Shown here one piece after another: positions 52,600 to 63,992 of a stretch of 64,000 nt of DNA; positions within the stretch are counted from its first letter, which is position 1; each line of letters begins with the position of its first letter. The stretch lies in the IMG/VR virus record IMGVR_UViG_3300044611_001018. The stretch is one strand, 5' to 3'. The stretch comes from a virus. Its lineage: Duplodnaviria > Caudoviricetes. The notes under the pieces were generated by a model, which saw only the letters and a program-made list of their open reading frames with translations, was not told the DNA's origin and ran no database searches. A program made the position numbers and the translations under genes.

Positions 52600-53232
52600 T
52601 TATAAAAATCCAACAGAATAATCTTTATCTGTAATATAATCTATACACAGAACAGTTCTGCAAGATTTCATTTTATTCTCAACTCTATGTTTTGACATAG
52701 GGTGAAATATATAGAATGATTGGTTGATAAAAGATTTAGTCTCAACCTCACCATTATCATCCATTATTTGTATTATAGCATCATCTGGGTCATTTGGGTC
52801 AATGTCCAACCCCCAAATAATTCTAAGTAATTTAACACCTGGAATATAATCTTGATCAATATGCCAATTTAAAAACTGTCCAGGGTCTAATGCATTAATT
52901 GCACAAGCATCAGTCAATCCAACTTCTAACAAAACACTCGTCAAGAAGGGTAACGCTGAGGTATTAAAAACCACAGGTGTTCTTTCAGCAAAAAGAGGCG
53001 CAAGATGCCAACCAAATTTAGAAGAATTTCTTTTTTCTGCAGAAAAATAAGAGGAATATCCAATAGGATATCCTCTATTTTGTTTTTTAATATATTCGTT
53101 TTGCTGTTCAGTAAAATCTCTAAATTCTAACCTATTGAAGTTATTCCTATACTCTTCTAAAATTTTATTATAATTATCATTTAAAAGAGATAACTTTGGG
53201 TGAATATCTTGATAGGATAAAAATTTAGACAT
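52600..53232 (-). CDS. AspH-like 2OG oxygenase
   Basis: WHLAPL, INALDPG, WHID, KHRVEN...RTVL. Confidence 0.72.
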   Translation of the reverse strand: MSKFLSYQDIHPKLSLLNDNYNKILEEYRNNFNRLEFRDFTEQQNEYIKKQNRGYPIGYSSYFSAEKRNSSKFGWHLAPLFAERTPVVFNTSALPFLTSVLLEVGLTDACAINALDPGQFLNWHIDQDYIPGVKLLRIIWGLDIDPNDPDDAIIQIMDDNGEVETKSFINQSFYIFHPMSKHRVENKMKSCRTVLCIDYITDKDYSVGFL

Positions 53233-53236
53233 ACAT

Positions 53237-53710
53237 TCAAAGATCGCCTTCTACACGATTCTCTGAGCGATACACATCAAAAGCACCTTCAGGATAACGA
53301 GCACTTAATTTTTCATAATTCATTTGAAGAATCTCATCAAAATTAGTGCCTAGTGCCATACACGCTTGGGCAATATACCAACAAATATCTCCAAGTTCTC
53401 GCTTCATATGAAAAATACTTTCATCATTATACGATTTACCCTGAAGGAAAATTTTCTTCACAACTTCGGTAAATTCACCTGCTTCTGCAGTCATACCAAG
53501 AGCGGCAGTTAGAAGCCTAGGAACATCTGCATCAGTTGATGCTTCAAGTTCAGTGAGGCGGGACAGAAGATTTGATAGTTCGCTACTTGCAGGACTAGTA
53601 GTTTGACGAACAAAATCAATATACTTATTACTATCAATAACTTTATTTTCTTTCATAGTAAACTCAAGAGAACCATCAGTGTTTTCTTTTTTTGAGATTG
53701 TGAGTGTCAT
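53237..53710 (-). CDS. mazG: MazG nucleotide pyrophosphohydrolase
   Basis: AEAGEFTEVVKK, RELGDICWY, NYEKLSARY. Confidence 0.93.
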   Translation of the reverse strand: MTLTISKKENTDGSLEFTMKENKVIDSNKYIDFVRQTTSPASSELSNLLSRLTELEASTDADVPRLLTAALGMTAEAGEFTEVVKKIFLQGKSYNDESIFHMKRELGDICWYIAQACMALGTNFDEILQMNYEKLSARYPEGAFDVYRSENRVEGDL

Positions 53711-53744: not shown

Positions 53745-54968
53745 TCAGGAATTTTGTCTAGTGTTGCCATAATGTATTACGGTAACCTCACTGGATTTAA
53801 ACTTTCTCCAAGGGTCAACCACAATACTTCCTTTAGGTACGTCACAGTATAATTCATCACTTTCTGGAGCGTCCCAATATTTGTATGTAGTTGTTGCACT
53901 GTGCGCTAGTAGAAATACTGCAGGACTTTGTGGTTGATAATTGTCTCCAGTACAACTATCAACATATGTTGGAGATTTACCAAATTCTTCACAATAATGA
54001 CCAACTAACAAACTATAACTTCCATCAAGATGCGATACTCTTGGTTTATAAGATTTTCCATGAATGATAATTGGAAGATTATATTTGTTAGACAATTCAA
54101 CAAGGTATTTTGCTAAGTTTTTAGCTTGACCTTCTCTAGAACCCATAACAGATTCAAAAATATCATATCCAAGGTTTAATTTTTTAGACAGATATCTAAG
54201 AGCAATATTATCTCTTGGGTGACATGCACCACCATCACCCATCCCAGCAGTCATATAAGATGAGTTAATAATTCTTGTTCCTGCAGAACAGAGAGCATTT
54301 GTTACAATATCTACGTTAATATTTCCTTGGCGCATCGCAACATCTTGAATCATATTAACAAATCCAATTTTGGTGCTGATAAAAGTATTGTAAAAAACTT
54401 TAATACATTCACATTCATCCCAAGTTCCTACAAAATATTTTGGAGAATTTTCCATGATTGTTTTGTAAAACTTGATAAGTTCTTTAGCATCTCCTGTTGT
54501 ATTTCCATCTTCTGTACCAATCATAACCATTTCAGGATTTACCATATCCCAACCAACTGTTCCCATGGCGATAAGATAGGGATTATAAACAAATCTTGCA
54601 TTTGTCATTAATGGTTTGAACTGTTCTCTTGTTGTTCCAGGAAGAACTGTAGAAATTAAAACCACCAACTGCCCATTTGCTACAGAATTTACTTGACTGA
54701 GGCATTGTTTGACAATTGAATAATCAAAGTCTTTTGGTTCCAAGTGCATTGATGGTGTACTTCCATCATAATCTGGTTCATGTGGAGTTGGAACAGCAAC
54801 AAAGATAATTTTACTTTTTTTAACTACTTCTTCTATAGAAGAACAGATATTAATTAAATTACTTTTTTTAAATTCAATATCATATCCATAAACATTATGA
54901 TTTTTAGCAGCAATCTCTGCTGCACATGGAAGACCCAATTTACCAAGCCCAATAAACCCAATGTTCAT
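53745..54968 (-). CDS. UDP-glucose/GDP-mannose dehydrogenase family
   Basis: GLGKLG, VAVPTP, YNPY, KVFYN, GDGGACHPRD. Confidence 0.9.
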   Translation of the reverse strand: MNIGFIGLGKLGLPCAAEIAAKNHNVYGYDIEFKKSNLINICSSIEEVVKKSKIIFVAVPTPHEPDYDGSTPSMHLEPKDFDYSIVKQCLSQVNSVANGQLVVLISTVLPGTTREQFKPLMTNARFVYNPYLIAMGTVGWDMVNPEMVMIGTEDGNTTGDAKELIKFYKTIMENSPKYFVGTWDECECIKVFYNTFISTKIGFVNMIQDVAMRQGNINVDIVTNALCSAGTRIINSSYMTAGMGDGGACHPRDNIALRYLSKKLNLGYDIFESVMGSREGQAKNLAKYLVELSNKYNLPIIIHGKSYKPRVSHLDGSYSLLVGHYCEEFGKSPTYVDSCTGDNYQPQSPAVFLLAHSATTTYKYWDAPESDELYCDVPKGSIVVDPWRKFKSSEVTVIHYGNTRQNS

Positions 54969-55930
54969 GCTTCTCTTTCCAAATCTAAAGTTACGCAGTG
55001 GAATCCTCCACTAAGAGTTCTTTGATGCCTCATTGGAAGCATTGCACATTCTATGCCATATGTTTCTAAAATTTTTCTAGTTGGATGTTGATGTTCTTCA
55101 AGAGCAACTAGATTTGGAGAAACACTAAACAAATTCATGTTACACCACTCTGAGGCATTATTATAACCTGGATAGTATCCAATGTCTACTGGGTCTGGCG
55201 CATTGATAATTTCCCAAGTATTAAATGGATATGGAAGCATATCTCTATGTTTTACTCTTGTTGGATTTACCATCATCAAACCCTCACGTAAAAAAGCTAT
55301 AGTAGTATCAATATGAACAAAAGTGTAGATATCTTTTACAATCCTAACTGTTGCAGAAGAACCCAGATTATTTTGTAGAATAGTTGCTCCAGCAACGTTA
55401 CCGCTATTTGAGATTAAATACAAAACTTCTTCATTAGCACGAATTGCATTTGCAGCATCAAATGCTGGGGTTAACTCAGTTAGTGCTAGTACTGAAGGAT
55501 CACCAATACAAGATTCATCATATAAATCATCATGATATGAACAGGGAATTTCTATTGTTCTTGGAATATGGTGAGAAAAAGACCTCCAATTACCTCTTCT
55601 TGCTCTCAAAGGTTGTGGAGTTGCCAAGGATAATTCACCATGAACAAATACACAATCCCTTGGACAATAATTATAATATTTTGTAGGTTCTCTATTTGGT
55701 CTTAAAACTTCAACATTTTCACCAACTAAAAAATTACAAAAAGTTTCAAGATCTTCATTTGCCTCATCAATTACTTGTTGTGGATATAATCCCGTTTTAA
55801 CATCAGATACATCTTGAATTCCAGCATAATTAATTGTCCTTAAACTTTTATCCATTGTTGGGATAGTTGCATGATCTGCAACACCAACAATAACTTTTTT
55901 TAGTTTATCCCATTCGTTTTTTGCGTACAT
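54965..55930 (-). CDS. Amidinotransferase (Gly/inosamine-phosphate amidinotransferase family)
   Basis: NEWDKLKKVIVG, YCPRD, HIDTT, LSGGFHCVTLD catalytic Cys. Confidence 0.88.
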   Translation of the reverse strand: MYAKNEWDKLKKVIVGVADHATIPTMDKSLRTINYAGIQDVSDVKTGLYPQQVIDEANEDLETFCNFLVGENVEVLRPNREPTKYYNYCPRDCVFVHGELSLATPQPLRARRGNWRSFSHHIPRTIEIPCSYHDDLYDESCIGDPSVLALTELTPAFDAANAIRANEEVLYLISNSGNVAGATILQNNLGSSATVRIVKDIYTFVHIDTTIAFLREGLMMVNPTRVKHRDMLPYPFNTWEIINAPDPVDIGYYPGYNNASEWCNMNLFSVSPNLVALEEHQHPTRKILETYGIECAMLPMRHQRTLSGGFHCVTLDLEREA

Positions 55931-55933
55931 AAT

Positions 55934-56734
55934 TCAACTCGTAGTTAAAACCATTTTGTGGTCATTTTCTTTTCCATATGTAAAGAAGTCATCTAATGTA
56001 AATTTTAGATGTTCCTTCATCCACCAATAATAATATGCACATCTAGATTTTTTATGGTGAATTCTATTTATTTCTATACCAAACTCTGTGCTTGAAGATT
56101 TAATATTTGTGGTTATTAAAGGTATAGAATACGTTCTTCCAGTATGTCCGATGAGATAATCTACTGTTGTAGAACTCTTATTAAACTTATCAATTGATAC
56201 AACTTTATCAAATCTATACTTATCTCCATAACAATGCAATTCTAAAATTTTTTCAACGTATTCTCTAGTCAACATGACTGGTCCAAAATAACTATGTCTT
56301 AATTTTGGATGTAAAAAGAAAGGGATAAACTCTTCAGATTCAAATCCAAGTTGAATACAATCCCAATCATAGGGAAGTCTACTCATTAAGTAATTCCAAT
56401 CAAAATTCCAATATTCAAATAAATTCAAATCATAGTCATCTTCCATTAACAACAAATAATCATCTTGTTTAGTATTAATCCACCGTTTAAGGAATTCTAA
56501 ATGAGTAACCGCATTCCCTAAGGCATATGCAGGTATACCAGTTACTTTACCCACAACAAAGTCAGAACCCCATTCATTTAATTCAGAAGCTAGAAATTTA
56601 GATGCAGATACTCTTGTAAATTTTAACTTCCAGTAATCAAACTGGTCTTCCATATATTCTTTTCTGTCAATCCTATTGTCTAGATTAACATAATATATGT
56701 GAGGAAAATTATTAAATCTATTTTTTAAATCCAT
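55934..56734 (-). CDS. GT25-like glycosyltransferase (tandem copy 5)
   Basis: YVNLDNRIDR, MEDD, LPYDWDCIQL. Confidence 0.75.
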   Translation of the reverse strand: MDLKNRFNNFPHIYYVNLDNRIDRKEYMEDQFDYWKLKFTRVSASKFLASELNEWGSDFVVGKVTGIPAYALGNAVTHLEFLKRWINTKQDDYLLLMEDDYDLNLFEYWNFDWNYLMSRLPYDWDCIQLGFESEEFIPFFLHPKLRHSYFGPVMLTREYVEKILELHCYGDKYRFDKVVSIDKFNKSSTTVDYLIGHTGRTYSIPLITTNIKSSSTEFGIEINRIHHKKSRCAYYYWWMKEHLKFTLDDFFTYGKENDHKMVLTTS

Positions 56735-56739
56735 AACGA

Positions 56740-57540
56740 TTAAAAATACTTAGATACTTTCTTAATCATCCCAACGTCGTTTTGTTTTCCATATGTAAAT
56801 ATCTCATCAAAACTATGTCGTTTACTATCATTCCTCCACCAATCATAGTAAGCAAGTCTTGATGCTTTTGTAATAATATATCTTTTAGTTGTTTTATCAA
56901 AAAAATCTGTATGGTTTGGAAACATTGGCAAACAATATGTTTTTCCACAATGTCCCAAAAAATAGTCTACTGTGCCAGACTTTAATCCATAATTTTTATT
57001 TGCAATATAGTTTGTAAGATTATATTTTTCTCCTACACAATGAAGTCTTATTAATTTTTTAACATATCTCCTATTAAGCATCGAGATGCCAAACGTATGA
57101 GCTGGCATGATTGGATGTAAGTAGAATGGAATATAATTTATATTCTCAAATCCAAGGAGTAAAGAATCCCAATCATAAGGAAGTCTACTCATTAAATATT
57201 CCCAATCAAATTGCCAATAAATTTCTAACCCAAAATCTAGAGTATCTTTAGAAATTATTAATCTATCTTCTTCAGTATTGTCATACCAATTTTTTAAAAA
57301 CTCCAATACGCTAATAGCATAAGCTGCTGTAGGTATTGGTAATTTATATTCCTTTAAATTAATCAGTAGATTCTTCCATTCAGATACATTATCTTTTGTA
57401 TATTTAATTGGTACTCTTTCATAATCTTGAACCCGCATATTACTTAGATTACGATCCATATGCTCATCCAAATGAGCATGTTCATCATAGTTAAAATAAT
57501 ATACTTTTGGTATTCCTTTTAATTTATCTTTTAAATTCAT
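56740..57540 (-). CDS. GT25-like protein with degenerate EDD (tandem copy 4)
   Basis: LPYDWD present; EDD replaced by KDT. Confidence 0.65.
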   Translation of the reverse strand: MNLKDKLKGIPKVYYFNYDEHAHLDEHMDRNLSNMRVQDYERVPIKYTKDNVSEWKNLLINLKEYKLPIPTAAYAISVLEFLKNWYDNTEEDRLIISKDTLDFGLEIYWQFDWEYLMSRLPYDWDSLLLGFENINYIPFYLHPIMPAHTFGISMLNRRYVKKLIRLHCVGEKYNLTNYIANKNYGLKSGTVDYFLGHCGKTYCLPMFPNHTDFFDKTTKRYIITKASRLAYYDWWRNDSKRHSFDEIFTYGKQNDVGMIKKVSKYF

Positions 57541-57610
57541 AATAAGTTAGAAACTCTTCTCTACAATTCAGTACTTCTGTTCAAAGTATTTATCGTCCCA
57601 TAGGGGGAAA

Positions 57611-58513
57611 TTATTTTCTAAAGTAGTCAAGATAAAGTTCCCCATATAATTCTACACCTTTATTTGATATATCATATGTCCTAAACCTCTCAGGTTTTAA
57701 ACTCATTCTCTCATGGTCATCTGATCCATATGTAAAAAATTGATCTATAGAATACAAGTCTCGCTCATGTTGCCACCAAAAATAATAAGTATTTCTTGCC
57801 ATAACATCACCCTCTTCTCTAAAAAATCTTTGGATGACACTATTATTTTCAAAACTTCCAAAATTTGGATTGATAGTAATTAAAGGTAAGCAATAAGTTC
57901 TTCCAGTATGCACCATAAAATAGTCAACTGTTCCAGATCCAGCAACATCGTTTTGCCTATTCCATGCAGCATTACAAACAGTATTAACTAGTTTATATTG
58001 ATCCCCAACGCAATGCAAATCTAATAGCTTCTCAACATAACCTCGATTTAACAAAACTGGACCAAAGTCATGAGCTGGTTCAATTGGGTGCAAATGAAAC
58101 TTCAATGCAGTTGGATTTTCAAATCCCATCAAAATGCAATCCCAATCATAAGGCAATCTTTCTATAAGATCTCTCCAAGAAAAATGCCAACGTTCAATAA
58201 GTCCCAAATCATAATCATCTTCCATTAAAATAACATATTGGTCTTCAGTATTTCTATACCAATCCTTTAGAAAATCCAAATGTGTTATTGCATTTGCGGC
58301 AATTGGAACTAACAAGTTATATTCATCAATATCTTTTATTAAATGCTTCCACTTACCATTTTCAGATGCTAGATATTTTGTTCCAGAAACTCTAGAGTAC
58401 TTTATACCATACTTATCAAATTGCTTAACCATCCAATTTTTTCTATCTAATCTATTATCCAGATTAAAATAGTTTACTAATGGCATCCCATCCAACTTAC
58501 TTTTTATATCCAT
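57611..58513 (-). CDS. GT25-like glycosyltransferase (tandem copy 3)
   Basis: YFNLDNRLDR, MEDD, LPYDWDC. Confidence 0.75.
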   Translation of the reverse strand: MDIKSKLDGMPLVNYFNLDNRLDRKNWMVKQFDKYGIKYSRVSGTKYLASENGKWKHLIKDIDEYNLLVPIAANAITHLDFLKDWYRNTEDQYVILMEDDYDLGLIERWHFSWRDLIERLPYDWDCILMGFENPTALKFHLHPIEPAHDFGPVLLNRGYVEKLLDLHCVGDQYKLVNTVCNAAWNRQNDVAGSGTVDYFMVHTGRTYCLPLITINPNFGSFENNSVIQRFFREEGDVMARNTYYFWWQHERDLYSIDQFFTYGSDDHERMSLKPERFRTYDISNKGVELYGELYLDYFRK

Positions 58514-59388
58514 ATTAATAACCCTTCAGATTTATCCTTAAACACATAAGGTTTTTTAGTGGATATATCAAACATTACCTCCATTCTCCATTCATCATTT
58601 TTATTATAATGAAAAAATTCAAATGCAGAATATGATTTACTTCTCACATTCCACCAGTATTCTGTAGCTTCTGAAGATAATTTATCAACCAAATCGTTAA
58701 CAGTATCACTACCAATAAATTTTTCATTCAAAGAAAATATTGGCAACGTATATGTTATTCCAATATCATAAAAGAAATTGTGCAACCCACCATACTCAAA
58801 ATTGGGTATTGATTTATCTGGAGTAGTGTAATGAAGTAAAAATTTACCATTTCTATAATGGTAATGCTTAATTCTTTTAGCAAAATAACGAGTAATCATG
58901 TAGCAATGACAAGACCCACTATCAGATTCCCATGGGTGCAAGTGCATTTTTATTCTTCGTTCAGCAGAACTAAAAAGTTGAATACAATCCCAATTATATG
59001 GAAGATTTTTTGTTAATAAATCCCAATTAAAAAACCAGTTATTAACAATATCAAACTTAATAATATCCTCCATAAAAATACAAGTCTCTGATTCATTTGA
59101 ATCATACCAATCAATGATTGATTGTAAAGTATTTAAAGTTAATGCTAGTTCTGATGGAGACTGAACTAATTCTTTGTCCAAAACAAGATGCTTCCAATCA
59201 TCATAGTTATCTTCACGGTATATCTTTCTATATCTACTAAAGTTAGAAATTCCCCAAGATTTAAATTGGTTCTGCATATATTCATTTTTTTCAACATCAT
59301 CCTCATGATTTAAATAGATTATTTTAGGAATACCAACTAATCTATTGGTTATAGCATTACATGCTATTTCTAATTCTTCTTCAATCAT
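58504..59388 (-). CDS. GT25-like glycosyltransferase (tandem copy 2)
   Basis: YLNHEDD, MEDI, LPYNWDCIQL. Confidence 0.7.
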   Translation of the reverse strand: MIEEELEIACNAITNRLVGIPKIIYLNHEDDVEKNEYMQNQFKSWGISNFSRYRKIYREDNYDDWKHLVLDKELVQSPSELALTLNTLQSIIDWYDSNESETCIFMEDIIKFDIVNNWFFNWDLLTKNLPYNWDCIQLFSSAERRIKMHLHPWESDSGSCHCYMITRYFAKRIKHYHYRNGKFLLHYTTPDKSIPNFEYGGLHNFFYDIGITYTLPIFSLNEKFIGSDTVNDLVDKLSSEATEYWWNVRSKSYSAFEFFHYNKNDEWRMEVMFDISTKKPYVFKDKSEGLLIWI

Positions 59389-60263
59389 TTTGGCAACACC
59401 TTTTTATCATACTGTGGCAACTGTACTTGCATCATCTCATGAACAGATCCACCATAACTCAGGATATCATCTGCAGTATATTTGTGACTATTATTTTCCC
59501 ACCATTTTTTTATACATGATGTAGCCAAAATATCATAGATTTTATTGTGATATGCACTGATTATAGGATCATACTCTTCATCATTTTCTATATTTTCAAT
59601 CTTATTATCTGGTGCAATAGCTAGTTTAGGATCTAAACAAAACAAAGGTAACGTGTAAGACTTTCCTATTTGATAGAGCAAAAAGTCATCACTACTATAG
59701 GATTCCCTAGGAACTTTCATATCCCTAAGACTATTATCAAGTTTAAATGTGCCATCAGATTTTAAATGTACTTTGATTAGTTTTTCAACAAAAAATCTAT
59801 TAACAATAAAACAAGCAGCAGAGGAACTATGCCACTCTCTTGGATGCAAATGCATCTTTAACACATGATCGTGACAATAATAAAATTGAACAATGTCCCA
59901 ATTATACGGCAAACTCTTCATCACCATTTCCCAATCAAAAGGCCAATATTCAACTAAGTCAAAACAAAGGTCATCTTGAACTATCATGCAAACATCAGAT
60001 ATCCCAGACTCATACCATTCAATTAAGGTAGTAAATTCATTCATTACAATTGATGCATCAGATGGTGCAAGAAGCATCAAATCTAATTTATGTGCCCATT
60101 CATCTATTTTTGCTGTTGAAAATCTAGAGGCAGAGACTCTAGTAAAATCAGTTATTCCCCATTTTTTAAATTGACCCTCGATATGTTCTTTTCTATCCAA
60201 TCTATGGTCTAGGTTCAAATAAAAAATAGGAGGCAAACCTTTTAATTTATTATCTAAATTCAT
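59385..60263 (-). CDS. GT25-like glycosyltransferase (tandem copy 1)
   Basis: YLNLDHRLDR, VQDD, LPYNWDIVQF. Confidence 0.7.
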   Translation of the reverse strand: MNLDNKLKGLPPIFYLNLDHRLDRKEHIEGQFKKWGITDFTRVSASRFSTAKIDEWAHKLDLMLLAPSDASIVMNEFTTLIEWYESGISDVCMIVQDDLCFDLVEYWPFDWEMVMKSLPYNWDIVQFYYCHDHVLKMHLHPREWHSSSAACFIVNRFFVEKLIKVHLKSDGTFKLDNSLRDMKVPRESYSSDDFLLYQIGKSYTLPLFCLDPKLAIAPDNKIENIENDEEYDPIISAYHNKIYDILATSCIKKWWENNSHKYTADDILSYGGSVHEMMQVQLPQYDKKVLPK

Positions 60264-60862
60264 TTTTTAAATACCTCCATATTAGGCAAGAAGGGATAAT
60301 CCAAATATTGAAATCTTTTTGGTTTTTTAAATGCCACATCATTAAATTTTTGAATGCCTAAAGATGCAGTTTCTGGCGTCATATAATAATGATAACCAAT
60401 CATATCTATATTCTGTTCTCCCCATGGTTTATCGTTAGTTCTTCCATCATAAACCATTTTTTTAAGCGTCGTATATGCCTCCTTATCATCCAATAATATA
60501 ATTCCACCACGACCAAGATTTAAATGCTTCTTAAATTGAAAACTAATGCACATATATGTACCAGGAATATATGTATTCTGCTCCCATAAAACCGCAGCAT
60601 CAATTATATTAGTATTCCAAAGATAATAATAATCTGTCCAAATATAATTTTTTTTCCATGTCCATTTTATACCCAATTTTTCAGCAGTAAATGGAATAGA
60701 AATATAAGTGTGCTCTGGTATTTGTATATCATTATACTTTTCATATCTAAGACATAACTCTATAGCATGAGTACAACAATCCGTTGCCACAGCATAAGGT
60801 GCATTAAAAAAATTAGATATTATTTTTTCAAACCTATTAACTACATCAAATTCCATTTTCAT
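60260..60862 (-). CDS. Short DegT/DnrJ/EryC1/StrS PLP aminotransferase
   Basis: VATDCCTHAIELCL, IDAA, SFQFKKHLNLGRGG, GYHYYM. Confidence 0.82.
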   Translation of the reverse strand: MKMEFDVVNRFEKIISNFFNAPYAVATDCCTHAIELCLRYEKYNDIQIPEHTYISIPFTAEKLGIKWTWKKNYIWTDYYYLWNTNIIDAAVLWEQNTYIPGTYMCISFQFKKHLNLGRGGIILLDDKEAYTTLKKMVYDGRTNDKPWGEQNIDMIGYHYYMTPETASLGIQKFNDVAFKKPKRFQYLDYPFLPNMEVFKK

Positions 60863-61577
60863 AAAGATTGTAATCCTCACTATACAAATTGTTAAATTCT
60901 TCTAAATCTGGTTCAACATAGTCTTGATATATTTTTTTACATATTGAACTGTAATTGGGCATAAAATATTTTGAATTTCTTAAATGAGGAATTTCAAATG
61001 ATTTATATTTTACTCTTTCAATATCATCTTGAATATTAGTTCTTATAAAATTATTAACTTTAAATGTCATATCTCCTTCCAATTTTATTAATTTAAGATT
61101 TCCTTTGTTCTCAAGACACAATCTTAGAAATAATTTTTGAGGAGCTGTATGTTCATCATAGATGTACTTTTTATTTTTAACTTGTTTAACAACCCATTCA
61201 ATAGGTGGTTTATATCTACACATAAATTCATTCAATCCAGATATCCATCTTTTAGTAGGATCCCTAGTAATTGCAAAGAATATATGTTCAGATTCTACAA
61301 AATATTGTGCTAAAAAATCTGGGTCTTTTGCTCTTGGTAATTTATCTAATGGGATGAAATTTGGACAATGAGCATTAAATGCTGTAGTAATAGAAGTACT
61401 ACCACACTTATCAACATGCATAAAAACTAATTTATAATTTTTTGCCCAGTAGCAATTTACAAATCCTTCTTTATGAATAACTTGTCCATCTATACCTTTT
61501 TGTAACTTAAAAGTAAATGCAGAGCAATGTTTTGAACATTGTTCTACAATATCATCTATGACTGCTCTTCTTTTCAT
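60846..61577 (-). CDS. Sulfotransferase family protein
   Basis: FMHVDKCGSTS (5'-PSB), RDPTKRWISG (3'-PB). Confidence 0.75.
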   Translation of the reverse strand: MKRRAVIDDIVEQCSKHCSAFTFKLQKGIDGQVIHKEGFVNCYWAKNYKLVFMHVDKCGSTSITTAFNAHCPNFIPLDKLPRAKDPDFLAQYFVESEHIFFAITRDPTKRWISGLNEFMCRYKPPIEWVVKQVKNKKYIYDEHTAPQKLFLRLCLENKGNLKLIKLEGDMTFKVNNFIRTNIQDDIERVKYKSFEIPHLRNSKYFMPNYSSICKKIYQDYVEPDLEEFNNLYSEDYNLYENGI

Positions 61578-62089
61578 ATCGTTGCTGTTATCTGCATTGT
61601 ATATCTATTTTCATCTCCAAGGTTTGCTGCCATATGTGGTGCATCTCCTCTCCACATATAACAATCACCCTTCTTCCAATTAACAATTGGTGTTCGGTTC
61701 AATTCAAAATAATGCCCAGATTTCCAGTCATTTAAAAAGATTAAAAATCTACACACATTATTTTGGTCTTCAATATTATATACCTTTCTATATCTAGGAT
61801 ACGTATCTTGGTGTTCTGGCATAATAGTTCCAGGTGGCATACAATATACGGACAAAGAAGTATTTTTTACTTGATGTTCCTTTTTAATTTCATTCACAAT
61901 ATCATGACACCATTGTGGAACTCCTCTATATTCTTCCCTTAAAAGACCAGTATAGTTCACATACAAATGCCCCAATGATTTCCACCGATTAACGGTTTCA
62001 TCATCAGGGAATTGTCTTCTATCTGGATATTCTATATTAGTATAATCTCCGATTATATCGGGATTTATGCTTTTTACTCTATAATTCAT
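61574..62089 (-). CDS. Cupin/2OG-Fe(II) oxygenase-like protein
   Basis: MPPG..MPEHQD, PHMAAN...RYTMQIT. Confidence 0.75.
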   Translation of the reverse strand: MNYRVKSINPDIIGDYTNIEYPDRRQFPDDETVNRWKSLGHLYVNYTGLLREEYRGVPQWCHDIVNEIKKEHQVKNTSLSVYCMPPGTIMPEHQDTYPRYRKVYNIEDQNNVCRFLIFLNDWKSGHYFELNRTPIVNWKKGDCYMWRGDAPHMAANLGDENRYTMQITATI

Positions 62090-62607
62090 TGTGGTAAATA
62101 TATATTATTTTGATTTTTACTGTACCAACAAGGCAAAGTATACCTCTCACCACTTATTACTTTAGTGACTCCATGATAAGTACGAGAACTAAAAAATATT
62201 ATTTTACCTTTTTTAGGGTTACATGTAAAGTTATCACTTGGGAAGTATGTCTTTCCTCCAGTAAAATTATCGTTTAAATATAAAACAGAACTATAGTCTC
62301 GATGATTTTGGTCTTGATGAACTTCCATATCTATTCCAGGGAGCATTTGAACAATGCTCCAATATTCCAAATATAAATTTACATCTAAGTTATCCCTATA
62401 AAATAATTTAGATAAAGTTTGAATGGATTTAATTTGAAGTATAAGAAGATTGGATAATAGTATCTTATCTTCAACTAAGTAAGGACACAAAGTTTTATCT
62501 TCAAAATAACCTTCTAGATGTATATTCCTAAAATTAGTATTATTAAAGTATTTTACTAAGTCATCACATATAGACTCATCTAAAAAATTTTCTATTTCGT
62601 AAATCAC
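62086..62607 (-). CDS. 2OG-Fe(II) oxygenase (prolyl hydroxylase-like)
   Basis: VHQD, VLYLNDNFTGG, YHGV...GERYT. Confidence 0.85.
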   Translation of the reverse strand: MIYEIENFLDESICDDLVKYFNNTNFRNIHLEGYFEDKTLCPYLVEDKILLSNLLILQIKSIQTLSKLFYRDNLDVNLYLEYWSIVQMLPGIDMEVHQDQNHRDYSSVLYLNDNFTGGKTYFPSDNFTCNPKKGKIIFFSSRTYHGVTKVISGERYTLPCWYSKNQNNIYLPQ

Positions 62608-62609
62608 AT

Positions 62610-63992
62610 TTAAAATTTAAAATCGGAGAATAATTTTTTAGCAGAAGATTTTTTTTCTTCATATTCATATTCTTCTTCCTGCCCACTATCGGTAATATTA
62701 TTTTGGGCACTTTGTTCACAATCATACAATCTCATTTTTGCTCTATCAATACCCAGAACAAACCGTTTAAATACTGTAGGATCATTATATCTATTCTTAA
62801 GTTGCTTTACCATAATCTGTCCAAGTTGCTCCAACTCTTCTGTGCTAATAAGAGCAAACATAAGGTCGGCAGTAGCAGGAAGACCAAAGGATTCAGAAGT
62901 ATCAGTAAGTTCAACATCAGAGTTGCCATAACCTGAACGAGTAGTTTGAGTGGCAGACATGATTGGCACATTGAATTCGACTGCAAGACCCCTAAGTTCC
63001 TCAGCAATTGCCTTGATATACGAATAAGAATTAACAGACATGTTTCCCCGATACCTGCTGGAAGCACAAATATTAAGGTAATCGATAAAAATAATATCAG
63101 GTTTAAATGACTTCTTAAGTGTAAGTTCATTAAGCAATGCTTTAAAGTGTCCACTATGCGCTGATGCAGTTGGATACTCTTTAATTATAAGATGTCCTTT
63201 TGTTTTATTTACAAGAGTATTAATTTTATTTTCAAAAATTTGTTTTGGTAAATTAATTAATTCTTGGATTGGAACATTGAGAAGGTTTGCATCAATTCGC
63301 TCTGCAATTCGTTCCTCCGCCATTTCAAGTGTGATATAGAGAACGTTCCTGCCTTGCAATAAGACGGAACTAGCCACATGACACATGAATAGCGATTTCC
63401 CAACGCCTGTCCCAGCGAGAGCGATGTTGAGAGTCTTATTAGGGAGACCACCTTTTGTAATTTTGTTGAAATACTCCAGGTCAAACTCAATCTTATCTTC
63501 CTTCCTGTGGTAAAAATCATAACGTTCTTCATAATTTTGTAAGTAATCATGACCAATATTGTTATCAAAAGATACTGCTAGGGCATCTGAAAGAATATTT
63601 GGAATAGCATCTCTTGTTTTTTTCTCATCATTACCATCAGCAATGTGAATAGATTCCATAAGTGCAAGATAAATTGCACGATCTCGGCACCATTTTTCAG
63701 TTGTATCAAGTAACCACTGTTGGTCTACAGGAGAATCATCAAGAGAATTACTAATTTCTCTAATTTCTTTAACTTCAGACTCAGTAAGATCTGTACGATT
63801 TTCTAACTCAATGCCAAGTGCTTCTAAAGTAATTGCTGAACCATATTTAACAATAAATTGAACAACTTCTTCAAAAATTACTTTTTCAGTTACTTTATCA
63901 AAATAAGTTGGTTGAATAAATGGAATAACTTTTCTAGAGTAATCTTCATTAAATACTAAATTTCTGAGAATGGTTGTCTCAATTCGTTCCAT
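62610..63992 (-). CDS. gp41: Replicative DNA helicase
   Basis: AGTGVGKS Walker A, IFIDYLNI, ATQTTR, KQLKNRY. Confidence 0.97.
   Translation of the reverse strand: MERIETTILRNLVFNEDYSRKVIPFIQPTYFDKVTEKVIFEEVVQFIVKYGSAITLEALGIELENRTDLTESEVKEIREISNSLDDSPVDQQWLLDTTEKWCRDRAIYLALMESIHIADGNDEKKTRDAIPNILSDALAVSFDNNIGHDYLQNYEERYDFYHRKEDKIEFDLEYFNKITKGGLPNKTLNIALAGTGVGKSLFMCHVASSVLLQGRNVLYITLEMAEERIAERIDANLLNVPIQELINLPKQIFENKINTLVNKTKGHLIIKEYPTASAHSGHFKALLNELTLKKSFKPDIIFIDYLNICASSRYRGNMSVNSYSYIKAIAEELRGLAVEFNVPIMSATQTTRSGYGNSDVELTDTSESFGLPATADLMFALISTEELEQLGQIMVKQLKNRYNDPTVFKRFVLGIDRAKMRLYDCEQSAQNNITDSGQEEEYEYEEKKSSAKKLFSDFKF

What the first reader, a model, noticed from the sequence alone, without database searches (positions are those of the whole stretch)
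53745..62607. AT-rich island that could build a guanidino (amidino) sugar or cyclitol glycan
Seen: between the core genes gp41 and mazG lies a tightly packed, mostly overlapping minus-strand run of two oxygenases, a sulfotransferase, a DegT/StrS PLP aminotransferase, five GT25-like proteins, an amidinotransferase with its catalytic Cys/His motifs, and an NDP-sugar dehydrogenase. Established: streptidine synthesis runs dehydrogenase, then DegT-family aminotransferase (StsC), then amidinotransferase (StrB1). Inference: the phage makes an oxidised, aminated, amidinated and possibly sulfated sugar and transfers it to virion proteins, the host surface or DNA. I know of no characterised phage pathway with this chemistry.
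Basis: partly seen in the sequence, partly recalled or inferred. Interest (0 to 1): 0.85.

Follow-up and report, generated by a model that had tools for sequence, protein, structure and literature searches.

The report
Phage sugar island with amidinotransferase module
A lake cyanophage carries an inserted gene island, shared by many uncultured relatives, that probably makes an unusual positively charged (guanidino) sugar and builds it into a short glycan; no such sugar is known from any virus, and the product has not been shown.

Summary
All twelve minus-strand genes are real, tightly packed and AT-rich (30.8% GC against 36.9% for the rest of the window). In the closest cultured phage, S-SRM01, gp41 and mazG abut, so this is an insertion.

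Four corrections:
- The DegT-like protein is a conserved half-size form (about 200 aa). It keeps the PLP lysine but has only the large domain.
- The dehydrogenase belongs to the UDP-glucose 6-dehydrogenase family. It makes uronic acids, so it is not the keto-forming step of the streptidine analogy.
- The amidinotransferase is most like StrB1 among solved enzymes (E 1.6e-56, catalytic residues intact). It nevertheless sits in a virus-only clade and is not a StrB1 orthologue.
- The conserved unit is a module: half-size DegT, small Fe/2OG oxygenase and amidinotransferase, often with the dehydrogenase, nearly always beside GT25-like transferases.

The module recurs in 45 dereplicated viral lineages, in three gene orders, and in a lineage whose amidinotransferase is only 46% identical. 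The sulfotransferase, the first oxygenase and a carbamoyltransferase are accessories.

Best reading (about 0.5): a host NDP-sugar is oxidised, aminated and amidinated, then transferred by soluble GT25-like enzymes to an acceptor reachable from the cytoplasm. A cyclitol route is unlikely. One paper lists the S-SCSM2R homologues as "antibiotic synthesis genes" of unclear role. This scan also noted the same stretch in another window.

The parts
62086..62607 (-). 2OG-Fe(II) oxygenase (173 aa, GTG start). Accessory member.
   Evidence: PF13640, E 7.8e-12; phrog_61. Found near the amidinotransferase in only 9 of 37 dereplicated lineages.
61574..62089 (-). Small Fe/2OG oxygenase 'oxy2' (171 aa). Core module member.
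   Evidence: Borderline Asp_Arg_Hydrox hit. H93-x-D95...H152 and R162 are invariant in 13 homologues. AF2 pLDDT 87.8; fold matches generic Fe/2OG dioxygenases AndA, AsqJ, P4H and PolD. Within 7 kb of the amidinotransferase in 30 of 37 lineages and again in the distant locus L163.
60846..61577 (-). Carbohydrate-type (Sulfotransfer_2) sulfotransferase (243 aa). Accessory; first gene order only.
   Evidence: PF03567, 31.5 bits above the cut-off of 22. The K57 P-loop-like motif and R105-D-P..R..S are invariant in 8 homologues. Present in 18 of 37 lineages.
60260..60880 (-). Half-size DegT-type PLP protein (200-206 aa; ATG at 60862 or GTG at 60880). Core module member.
   Evidence: PF01041, E 1.7e-14, covering only about positions 40-245 of the 360-position profile. 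Length 194-234 aa in 74 of 76 loci, the two shorter being cut by a contig end. K118 (PLP Lys) and D94 invariant. AF2 pLDDT 92.7. Foldseek top hits are all sugar aminotransferases, TMq 0.6-0.7, large domain only. Homodimer model score 0.90 against best control 0.07. Present in 35 of 37 lineages.
59385..60263 (-). GT25-like glycosyltransferase paralogue a (292 aa)
   Evidence: phrog_2835, E 4e-37. Shared N-terminal motif and acidic DD motif.
58504..59388 (-). GT25-like paralogue b (294 aa); acidic motif degenerate (ED-I)
   Evidence: phrog_2835, E 1e-32; alignment A2.
57611..58513 (-). GT25-like paralogue c (300 aa)
   Evidence: phrog_2835, E 5.5e-38; alignment A2.
57587..57593 (-). ATAAATA core (GATAAATA) of a T4-type late-promoter-like motif, in the island's only sizeable gap, 47 nt upstream of paralogue d
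   Evidence: The same position is kept in many relatives with the first gene order, and a motif lies just upstream of the half-size DegT gene in the third order. The NATAAATA late promoter of cyanomyoviruses is described in PMC2984593.
56740..57540 (-). GT25-like paralogue d (266 aa); acidic motif degenerate (KD-T)
   Evidence: phrog_2835, E 3.2e-26; alignment A2.
55934..56734 (-). GT25-like paralogue e (266 aa)
   Evidence: phrog_2835, E 2.2e-44. Pfam GT25 18.1 bits, below the cut-off of 24. ESM Atlas: 96 of 100 named hits are viral GT25 clusters.
54965..55930 (-). L-arginine-type amidinotransferase (321 aa, P0001). Core module member.
   Evidence: 1bwd StrB1 E 1.6e-56, aligned end to end. 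D92, D158, H206, D208 and H311 are kept in all 202 viral-clade sequences and C312 in 201. Virus-only clade, SH-aLRT 96.
53745..54968 (-). UDP-glucose/GDP-mannose 6-dehydrogenase family protein (407 aa). Frequent module member.
   Evidence: PF03721 and PF00984. TIGR03026 148 bits, below the cut-off of 189.8. Catalytic Cys in GGACHPRD aligns to GGSCFQKD of solved UGDH. Present in 21 of 37 lineages and beside amidinotransferase homologues in the distant loci L163 and L165.

Best explanation
The island is an accessory nucleotide-sugar tailoring and glycosylation cassette of T4-like cyanomyoviruses.

Its conserved heart has four enzymes:
- a UGDH-family NDP-sugar 6-dehydrogenase;
- a small Fe/2OG oxygenase;
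- a half-size DegT-type PLP enzyme, predicted to be a homodimer;
- an arginine-dependent amidinotransferase.

Proposed order (inferred, not shown):
1. A host NDP-hexose is oxidised at C6 to the uronic acid.
2. The oxygenase creates a ring keto group. In some lineages an SDR or a radical SAM enzyme may do this instead.
3. The PLP enzyme transaminates the keto group to an amine.
4. The amidinotransferase moves the amidino group of L-arginine onto that amine. This gives a guanidino sugar and ornithine.

The five soluble GT25-like paralogues then assemble a short glycan containing this sugar. In this lineage the sulfotransferase sulfates it. The acceptor must be reachable from the cytoplasm: virion proteins, or a lipid A-core-like lipid at the inner face of the membrane.

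The tailoring steps might act on the sugar after transfer rather than on the free NDP-sugar. That would fit the open half-size PLP enzyme. A late-type promoter motif inside the island suggests that at least the distal genes are made late, when virions are built.
For: Shown:
- Every enzyme keeps its catalytic or cofactor residues: amidinotransferase, PLP Lys and Asp, the oxygenase's HxD...H and Arg, the dehydrogenase Cys, and the PAPS motifs.
- Linkage. Of 37 dereplicated viral lineages with at least 3 kb on both flanks, 35 have the half-size DegT near the amidinotransferase. 33 have a GT25-like gene, 30 the oxygenase and 21 the dehydrogenase. These occur in three different gene orders.
- The four module enzymes recur in L163, partly in a second copy (no second half-size DegT), where the amidinotransferase is only 46% identical. 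There they sit beside an NDP-sugar SDR of the epimerase/dehydratase type.
- The dehydrogenase also sits beside a Cys-less amidinotransferase homologue in L165.
- The half-size DegT folds like sugar aminotransferases: perosamine synthase, ArnB, WbpE, PglE.
- Its homologue in a Flavobacterium phage lies in a classical NDP-sugar cluster with a WecE-type aminotransferase, an epimerase and GTs.
- The homodimer model scored 0.90 against a best control of 0.07. Runs agreed in at least 95% of contacts and pLDDT was at least 92. The mark was reached by 20 of 30 proteins solved as pairs and 1 of 23 solved as single chains. DegT dimers have been solved, so this shows likeness rather than binding.
- The second gene order adds a NodU/TobZ-type carbamoyltransferase, which is a sugar-tailoring enzyme.
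- No island protein has a transmembrane segment. There is no flippase, polymerase or initiating phosphoglycosyltransferase, so the chemistry is cytoplasmic.
- The late-promoter-like motif keeps its position in relatives.

Inferred: the order of steps, the position on the sugar, the identity of the NDP-sugar, and the acceptor.
Against: - No product is known, and no natural guanidino sugar in a glycan was found in the papers searched.
- No Fe/2OG oxygenase is known to me to make a keto sugar nucleotide. The fold of oxy2 is generic.
- The PLP protein lacks the C-terminal domain, which in full-length DegT enzymes helps hold the nucleotide. Its substrate may therefore not be an NDP-sugar.
- The dehydrogenase is absent near the amidinotransferase in the second gene order. 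S-SCSM2R has only a distant UGDH, 36 kb away.
- The third gene order has no GT25-like gene, only a weak GT10-like lead.
- GT25-like genes and oxygenases are common in cyanomyovirus hyperplastic regions, so some adjacency could be background.
- None of 80 cellular amidinotransferase loci shares the other island genes. No characterised cellular pathway can be used as a guide.
Confidence: 0.5

Rival explanations
1. The module makes a free small molecule rather than a glycan. This could be a guanidino amino acid or polyamine, or an aminoglycoside- or nucleoside-like secondary metabolite. That is the 'antibiotic synthesis' idea raised for S-SCSM2R. Alternatively it could reroute arginine nitrogen.
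For: - All characterised relatives act on small molecules: StrB1, GATM, HsvA (polyamine) and SxtG.
- The authors of PMC12801897 filed the S-SCSM2R homologues under antibiotic synthesis.
- The third gene order lacks GT25-like genes and is rich in radical SAM enzymes.
- Carbamoyl-, sulfo- and amidino-transfer together recall saxitoxin-type tailoring (own knowledge).
Against: - 33 of 37 lineages place the amidinotransferase among several GT25-like transferases.
- The recurrent partners are nucleotide-sugar enzymes: UGDH, an SDR, and a DegT-like fold.
- There are no scaffold-forming enzymes (PKS, NRPS, cyclitol synthase, kinase) and no exporter.
Confidence: 0.17
2. The island hypermodifies phage DNA. 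An oxygenase would oxidise a pyrimidine methyl or hydroxymethyl group. The PLP enzyme and amidinotransferase would then install an amino and a guanidino group, and GTs would glycosylate the bases. The result would protect against host restriction.
For: - The island sits in the replication module beside gp41 and MazG.
- The first oxygenase gives a weak Tet_JBP hit, 18.4 bits against a cut-off of 34.9.
- Distant amidinotransferase homologues (24% identity) occur in Campylobacter phages. By my own knowledge those phages carry modified guanine; no link between the two is shown.
- An open half-size PLP enzyme could reach a polymer.
Against: - The Tet_JBP-like oxygenase is the least conserved member, found in 9 of 37 lineages.
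- The core oxygenase resembles small-molecule and protein hydroxylases, not TET, JBP or AlkB.
- No hydroxymethylase, base kinase or DNA transferase typical of known thymidine or cytosine hypermodification lies in the island.
- UGDH and sulfotransferase have no place in known DNA modification chemistry.
Confidence: 0.06
3. There is no joint pathway. The island would be a hyperplastic-region collection of unrelated auxiliary genes that happen to be neighbours.
For: - T4-like cyanophages accumulate many 2OG oxygenases and GTs in variable regions (PMC2984593; PMC12801897).
- Accessory members vary between lineages.
- UGDH-like and half-size DegT genes occur without the amidinotransferase in other phages.
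Against: - The DegT, oxygenase and amidinotransferase trio stays together through three rearranged gene orders. It also holds down to 46% amidinotransferase identity.
- The genes overlap by 4 nt, which suggests translational coupling.
Confidence: 0.1

Closest known systems
StrB1, L-arginine:inosamine-phosphate amidinotransferase of streptomycin (streptidine) biosynthesis (PDB 1bwd)
   Same: Best solved match (E 1.6e-56, aligned over residues 4-319). Similar short length without the GATM inserts. Catalytic Cys, His and Asp residues conserved. In both cases the acceptor amine is thought to be made by a DegT-family transaminase.
   Different: The phage enzyme is not an orthologue. Viral sequences form their own clade, while the StrB1-like Streptomyces clade (L110, 554 bits to 1bwd) lies among cellular homologues. 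The island has no inositol dehydrogenase, kinase or cyclitol enzyme. The acceptor is unknown.
Amino-sugar-nucleotide routes that start with a UGDH-family enzyme: Ugd-ArnA-ArnB (UDP-Ara4N) and WbpA-WbpB-WbpE (UDP-GlcNAc3NA). Pseudomonas O5 antigen adds a 3-acetamidino group through WbpG (own knowledge).
   Same: The logic is the same: C6 dehydrogenase, then keto formation, then a DegT-family transaminase. ArnB and WbpE are among the structural matches of the half-size DegT. L163 even adds an SDR of the ArnA/UXS type.
   Different: The keto-forming SDR or GFO enzyme is replaced here, presumably by a Fe/2OG oxygenase. The transaminase is half-size. The final group would be a guanidino group from arginine, not an acetamidino group made by an amidotransferase.
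ORF302-310 of Synechococcus phage S-SCSM2R (PQ898602; PMC12801897)
   Same: This is the only cultured phage with a close homologue (amidinotransferase 65.8%, half-size DegT 55%). Its cluster holds the oxygenase, four GT25-like genes and a GT2.
   Different: It lies elsewhere in the genome, not at gp41/mazG. It has a radical SAM gene and no adjacent UGDH or sulfotransferase. The authors list the GTs as cell-wall genes. They list the DegT-like, amidinotransferase and radical SAM genes as 'antibiotic synthesis genes' of unclear role, and do not treat them as one pathway.
'LPS' gene clusters of P-SSM2 and other cyanomyoviruses; virus-encoded glycosylation (mimivirus and chlorovirus glycans, mycobacteriophage virion glycosylation)
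   Same: These are virus-encoded GTs together with sugar-nucleotide tailoring enzymes. GT25-like homologues occur in P-SSM2 and S-SCSM1. The only PDB sequence match of the GT profile is mimivirus R655, E 0.02. The proposed roles are surface remodelling or virion decoration.
   Different: None of these systems contains an amidinotransferase. No guanidino or sulfated sugar has been reported for them.

Membership tests
Arginine:X amidinotransferases (GATM/StrB1 family) | End-to-end sequence homology to solved members | tested here: met
   1bwd E 1.6e-56 (query 4-319); 5wpi 1.6e-32; GATM 2e-29.
Arginine:X amidinotransferases (GATM/StrB1 family) | Catalytic Cys with His and Asp partners | tested here: met
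   C312, H206, D158, D92 and D208 align to the StrB1-like sequence. C312 is kept in 201 and the other four in all of 202 viral-clade sequences.
StrB1 orthologues (inosamine-phosphate specific) | Falls in the same clade as Streptomyces StrB1 | tested here: not met
   The viral clade is separate (SH-aLRT 96). The StrB1-like L110 clade lies among cellular sequences. The tree was a quick search with midpoint root.
StrB1 orthologues (inosamine-phosphate specific) | Activity on scyllo-inosamine 4-phosphate | not testable with these tools
   Needs an enzyme assay.
Streptidine pathway (StrI, StsC, kinase, StrB1) | Inositol dehydrogenase, full-length StsC and inosamine kinase present | tested here: not met
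   No GFO/IDH-type dehydrogenase and no kinase is present. The DegT-like protein is half-size.
DegT/DnrJ/EryC1/StrS sugar aminotransferases | PLP-binding Lys and pyridine-N Asp | tested here: met
   K118 and D94 are invariant in 15 sequences and lie in the motifs aligned to solved members.
DegT/DnrJ/EryC1/StrS sugar aminotransferases | Two-domain architecture of about 360-400 aa | tested here: not met
   194-234 aa in 74 of 76 loci, the two shorter being cut by a contig end. The model covers only the large domain (TMt 0.33-0.40 against targets of about 370 aa).
DegT/DnrJ/EryC1/StrS sugar aminotransferases | Homodimer | tested here: inconclusive
   Model score 0.90 against best control 0.07. 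The mark was reached by 20 of 30 solved pairs and 1 of 23 single chains. Run agreement at least 95%, pLDDT at least 92. DegT dimers are solved, so this shows likeness only.
UDP-glucose/GDP-mannose 6-dehydrogenases | NAD-binding and central domains with the catalytic Cys | tested here: met
   PF03721 and PF00984; the Cys aligns to that of solved UGDH.
UDP-glucose/GDP-mannose 6-dehydrogenases | Reaches the curated NCBIfam cut-off or a specific equivalog (substrate assignment) | tested here: not met
   TIGR03026 148 bits, below 189.8. All equivalogs score far below their cut-offs. The substrate nucleotide sugar cannot be assigned.
Glycosyltransferase family 25 | Pfam PF01755 at the gathering score | tested here: not met
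   Only one paralogue hits, at 18.1 bits against a cut-off of 24.
Glycosyltransferase family 25 | Remote similarity and family motifs | tested here: met
   ESM Atlas: 96 of 100 named hits are GT25 clusters. phrog_2835. N-terminal motif and acidic motif. Mimivirus R655 E 0.02.
Sulfotransfer_2 (carbohydrate sulfotransferases) | Pfam cut-off and both PAPS-binding motifs | tested here: met
   31.5 bits, above 22; motifs invariant in 8 homologues.
Fe(II)/2-oxoglutarate oxygenases | HxD/E...H facial triad, 2OG-binding Arg, double-stranded beta-helix fold | tested here: met
   Invariant H93, D95, H152 and R162; Foldseek hits.

The most novel reading that the evidence does not exclude
Cyanomyoviruses encode a previously unknown route to a guanidino (N-amidino) amino sugar, possibly a uronic acid, and build it with sulfate into a zwitterionic glycan on virions or on the infected cell. 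It would use two enzyme forms with no characterised counterpart. One is a minimal, single-domain DegT-type transaminase. The other is a virus-specific clade of arginine amidinotransferases acting on a carbohydrate.
Probability: 0.4. Interest if true: 0.85.

Novelty: new variant of a known kind. Interest (0 to 1): 0.68.

Why it matters
- Virus-encoded glycan machinery is known from giant viruses and from a few phages, and cyanophage 'LPS genes' have been unexplained for twenty years. This island offers a defined, widely distributed and testable module within that set.
- If the product is a guanidino sugar, it would be a new class of natural carbohydrate.
- It would extend amidinotransferase chemistry from toxins and antibiotics to glycans.
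- It would show that a 200-residue half of a fold-type-I PLP enzyme can work on its own.
- Ecologically, the gene family is common in lake and marine viral metagenomes: 184 IMG/VR contigs and 4,711 database proteins at E 1e-10 or better.
- A charged coat on virions or infected cells could affect adsorption, superinfection, grazing or particle stability.
- A cultured phage with the module (S-SCSM2R) exists, so the question can be tested now.

Tried and rejected
- Megablast of the island against 50,697 phage records: no match.
- The whole genome of the window is not held. Genome-wide checks for collagen-like fibres, PAPS genes and other sugar genes were therefore impossible. The window itself has no Gly-X-Y repeat ORF.
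- A 26-sequence alignment was too diverse for the genome scan, so a 9-sequence one was used. Its single pattern misses StrB1 itself. A StrB1-like Streptomyces sequence was identified through the PDB instead.
- The 80 cellular amidinotransferase loci share no other island gene, so no cellular pathway can be borrowed.
- Profile search of oxy2 against PDB sequences: nothing meaningful. Its fold is generic.
- Cluster names for the nearest metagenomic amidinotransferase representatives were uninformative.
- There is no exact TATAAATA in the island; only the looser NATAAATA form occurs.
- RNA libraries. Two metatranscriptome runs hold short contigs identical to parts of the amidinotransferase/dehydrogenase region (151 nt at 54840-54990 and 264 nt at 55399-55662), plus contigs 90-95% alike from relatives. 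These are contigs from RNA libraries, so they do not prove transcription. Uncovered parts say nothing.
- S-SCSM2R ORF266, a 'glycine amidinotransferase' found in the virion proteome, is only a 23%-identical paralogue and not the island enzyme. The window has no second copy.
- The cyclitol/streptidine reading is rejected because inositol enzymes and a kinase are missing.
- A role for the dehydrogenase as the keto-forming step is rejected because it is a Cys-dependent C6 dehydrogenase.

Full report
**1. What is there**

The stretch 53745-62607 holds twelve minus-strand ORFs. Five junctions overlap by 4 nt and one by 10 nt. The other gaps are 2-5 nt, apart from a single 70-nt gap at 57541-57610. 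The flanks are a DnaB-type gp41 helicase (62610-63992) and MazG (53237-53710).

The island has 30.8% GC against 36.9% for the rest of the window. The closest cultured relative by gp41 is Synechococcus phage S-SRM01 from a freshwater reservoir (85.9% identity). There gp41 and mazG are directly adjacent. The 8.9 kb is therefore an insertion into a conserved junction.

The exact DNA is present in 18 lake-water metagenome runs from 2020 and 2024, some of which may be the source of the window.

**2. The genes, one by one**

*Amidinotransferase (54965-55930, 321 aa).*
- Pfam misses it, but it matches StrB1 (1bwd) end to end at E 1.6e-56. HsvA (1.6e-32), GATM (2e-29) and SxtG (1.9e-26) follow.
- The residues aligned to the catalytic Cys, His and Asp of StrB1 are D92, D158, H206, D208 and C312. 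C312 is conserved in 201 and the other four in all of 202 sequences of the viral clade.

*DegT-like protein (60260-60880).*
- It has only 200-206 residues. This is not a gene fragment: 74 of 76 related loci encode a protein of 194-234 aa, and the two shorter ones are cut by a contig end.
- The PLP lysine (K118), the aspartate that binds the pyridine nitrogen (D94) and many other positions are invariant.
- The AlphaFold model is confident (pLDDT 92.7). All top structural matches are nucleotide-sugar aminotransferases or dehydratases: perosamine synthase, AHBA synthase, ArnB, WbpE, PglE, PseC and ColD. Only the large PLP domain is covered (TMq 0.6-0.7, TMt 0.33-0.40).
- A homodimer model with PLP scored 0.90 against a best control of 0.07. 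Runs agreed in at least 95% of contacts and pLDDT was at least 92. The mark was reached by 20 of 30 proteins solved as pairs and by 1 of 23 solved as single chains. Dimers of this family are solved, so this shows likeness to them, not binding.

*Dehydrogenase (53745-54968).*
- It has the N-terminal and central domains of the UDP-glucose/GDP-mannose dehydrogenase family.
- It keeps the catalytic cysteine.
- It stays below the curated NCBIfam cut-offs, so its sugar nucleotide cannot be named.
- Enzymes of this family oxidise C6 to a carboxylate. They do not make the ring ketone that a transaminase needs.

*Second oxygenase, oxy2 (61574-62089).*
- It has an invariant HxD...H triad and Arg.
- Its fold is a generic Fe/2OG dioxygenase fold.

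*First oxygenase (62086-62607).* It is an ordinary 2OG-FeII_Oxy_3 protein.

*Sulfotransferase (60846-61577).* It passes the Pfam cut-off, and both PAPS-type motifs are invariant.

*Five glycosyltransferases.*
- They are paralogues, 28-32% identical to the first of them, and belong to phrog_2835.
- They are GT25-like by the ESM Atlas and by motifs, but not by the Pfam threshold.
- Two of the five have a degenerate acidic motif.

No island protein has a transmembrane segment.

**3. Conservation**

A scan of IMG/VR found 184 contigs encoding a relative of the amidinotransferase. The protein database holds 4,711 relatives at E 1e-10 or better, and the best 120 are all at least 64% identical.

In the 80 loci fetched plus S-SCSM2R, three gene orders appear:
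- **A1** (this window): gp41, oxygenase(s), sulfotransferase, half-size DegT, five or six GT25-like genes, amidinotransferase, dehydrogenase, MazG.
- **A2**: a large 2OG oxygenase, three or four GT25-like genes, half-size DegT, oxy2, amidinotransferase, another GT. A NodU/TobZ-type carbamoyltransferase follows in L040. S-SCSM2R has a radical SAM gene.
- **A3**: dehydrogenase on the opposite strand, half-size DegT, an SGNH/DUF6071-like gene, amidinotransferase and oxy2. Radical SAM genes surround them, and a tail-fibre-like ORF lies 8 kb away.

After dereplication at 95% amidinotransferase identity there are 45 lineages. Of the 37 with at least 3 kb on both sides, the numbers within 7 kb of the amidinotransferase are:

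| Gene | Lineages (of 37) |
|---|---|
| Half-size DegT | 35 |
| A GT25-like gene | 33 |
| oxy2 | 30 |
| Dehydrogenase | 21 |
| Sulfotransferase | 18 |
| First oxygenase | 9 |

The module reaches further than these lineages.
- In L163 the amidinotransferase is only 46% identical. That metagenomic contig carries an NDP-sugar SDR (epimerase/dehydratase type), a dehydrogenase-like gene, oxy2, the amidinotransferase and the half-size DegT. A second oxy2, amidinotransferase-like gene and dehydrogenase follow.
- In L165 a homologue that has lost the catalytic Cys sits near the same dehydrogenase family and a B12 radical SAM enzyme.
- The half-size DegT and the dehydrogenase also occur without the amidinotransferase. 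Examples are a 642-kb uncultured phage and a Flavobacterium phage. In the latter the half-size DegT lies in a textbook sugar cluster with a full-length WecE-type transaminase, an epimerase and GTs.

The amidinotransferase thus looks like an addition to a wider phage toolkit for amino and uronic sugars.

**4. Where the amidinotransferase comes from**

I built a tree of 184 sequences: viral loci, 50%-identity representatives and 80 named cellular homologues. The viral enzymes form one clade (SH-aLRT 96), inside a larger group of metagenomic sequences, apart from all cellular ones.

A Streptomyces clade that is StrB1-like (L110, 554 bits to 1bwd) sits among the cellular sequences. Cellular homologues are at most 40% identical, and none has other island genes nearby.

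The enzyme is therefore StrB1-like in form but is not a StrB1 orthologue. The tree was a quick search with a midpoint root, so deep order is uncertain.

**5. How it most likely works**

*Shown:* a conserved, catalytically intact set of a C6 dehydrogenase, an Fe/2OG oxygenase, a PLP enzyme of sugar-aminotransferase fold and an arginine-type amidinotransferase. It is embedded among soluble GT25-like transferases.

*Inferred:*
1. A host NDP-hexose is oxidised to the uronic acid.
2. A ring position is oxidised to a ketone by oxy2. An SDR (L163) or a radical SAM enzyme (A3, S-SCSM2R) may do this elsewhere, as BtrN does in butirosin biosynthesis (own knowledge).
3. The PLP enzyme aminates the ketone.
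4. The amidinotransferase converts the amine to a guanidino group at the expense of arginine.
5. The GT25-like enzymes build a short glycan, which is sulfated in A1 or carbamoylated in A2.

The closest chemical precedents are Ugd-ArnA-ArnB and WbpA-WbpB-WbpE (own knowledge; structural matches).

The island has no flippase, polymerase, lipid-carrier transferase or membrane protein. The acceptor must therefore be reachable from the cytoplasm: virion proteins, or a lipid A-core-type lipid.

A NATAAATA-type late promoter motif lies in the only gap, 47 nt before the fourth GT gene. It is kept at that place in many A1 relatives, and a motif lies before the half-size DegT gene in A3. This motif is the reported late promoter of cyanomyoviruses (PMC2984593). 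It tilts the odds modestly towards a late, virion-related role.

Other first-reader notes of this scan report an ADP-heptose pathway with a GT9-like gene, and a GT25-like gene with radical SAM genes in the head module of the same phage. I did not check them. They fit a phage that invests heavily in its own glycans.

**6. Rivals**
- A free small-molecule product, the 'antibiotic' idea of PMC12801897, is possible, above all for A3. The dominance of GTs and nucleotide-sugar enzymes argues against it.
- DNA hypermodification has little support. The only Tet/JBP-like hit is weak and belongs to the least conserved gene. The core oxygenase does not resemble DNA oxygenases.
- Chance neighbourhood is contradicted by linkage through rearrangements and deep divergence.

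**7. What is known already**

PMC12801897 (December 2025) annotated the S-SCSM2R homologues. It stated that such 'antibiotic synthesis genes' had not been reported in cyanophages and that their role is unclear. It treated the neighbouring GTs separately, as cell-wall genes.

No paper found links an amidinotransferase to a phage glycan, and none describes a natural guanidino sugar in a glycan. The library does not include most subscription journals.

**8. Verdict**
A joint sugar pathway with amidination is the best reading (about 0.5). The streptidine or cyclitol route and the role assigned to the dehydrogenase are not supported. The target is open.
- This is a new variant of a known kind, namely virus-encoded glycan tailoring. 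It has real chemical novelty if confirmed, and a cultured phage is available to test it.

Noticed in passing
L169:17354-18247 (S-SCSM2R ORF266): A second, very distant amidinotransferase-like protein (23% identical, Cys kept) lies beside KdsA/KdsB and 2OG oxygenases. PMC12801897 reports it in the CsCl-purified virion proteome. The window has no copy of it.
   Followed up: partly
P0122, P0126, P0127, P0128 (alignment A4); L165:8001-9002: One member of the viral amidinotransferase clade (P0122) and its nearest metagenomic sister groups have Ser or Asn in place of the catalytic Cys. They may be pseudo-enzymes or use altered chemistry. One such homologue (P0276, of the P0128 cluster) sits beside a UGDH-like gene and a 749-aa B12 radical SAM enzyme.
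   Followed up: partly
L163:5221-14432: A distant viral-type contig carries the module enzymes, partly in a second copy, together with an NDP-sugar SDR, a methyltransferase and a radical SAM gene. A 371-aa ORF there resembles only the amidinotransferase C-terminus.
   Followed up: partly
L167:8388-14352 (uncultured 642-kb phage LR756502) and L168:6986-7630 (Flavobacterium phage immuto): The half-size DegT family exists outside cyanophages and without the amidinotransferase. In the Flavobacterium phage it is in a classical sugar cluster next to a full-length WecE-type transaminase.
   Followed up: partly
phage records H2-H13 (Campylobacter phages CP220, CPt10, CP20 and others): Campylobacter myoviruses encode a 23-24% identical amidinotransferase homologue of unknown role.
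   Followed up: no
window, whole (for example 3972, 24161, 39571, 41531, 48055, 51394; minus strand): ATAAATA is rarer than in shuffles (17 against 28.5 expected). Its minus-strand copies mostly lie 20-50 nt upstream of ORF starts, as expected for T4-type late promoters.
   Followed up: partly
window 52600-53232 (-): A further Asp/Asn-hydroxylase-family oxygenase (210 aa, E 3.2e-8) lies just beyond MazG. It travels with the island in some relatives with the first gene order (9 of 37 lineages).
   Followed up: no
L040:11814-13310: In the second gene order a NodU/TobZ-type carbamoyltransferase (Carbam_trans_C, E 1.7e-54) directly follows the cluster.
   Followed up: no
window 54840-54990 and 55399-55662: Contigs identical to these stretches occur in two metatranscriptome libraries, one aquatic (2017) and one from lake water (2024). 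This is a hint of expression only, because DNA carry-over cannot be excluded.
   Followed up: partly
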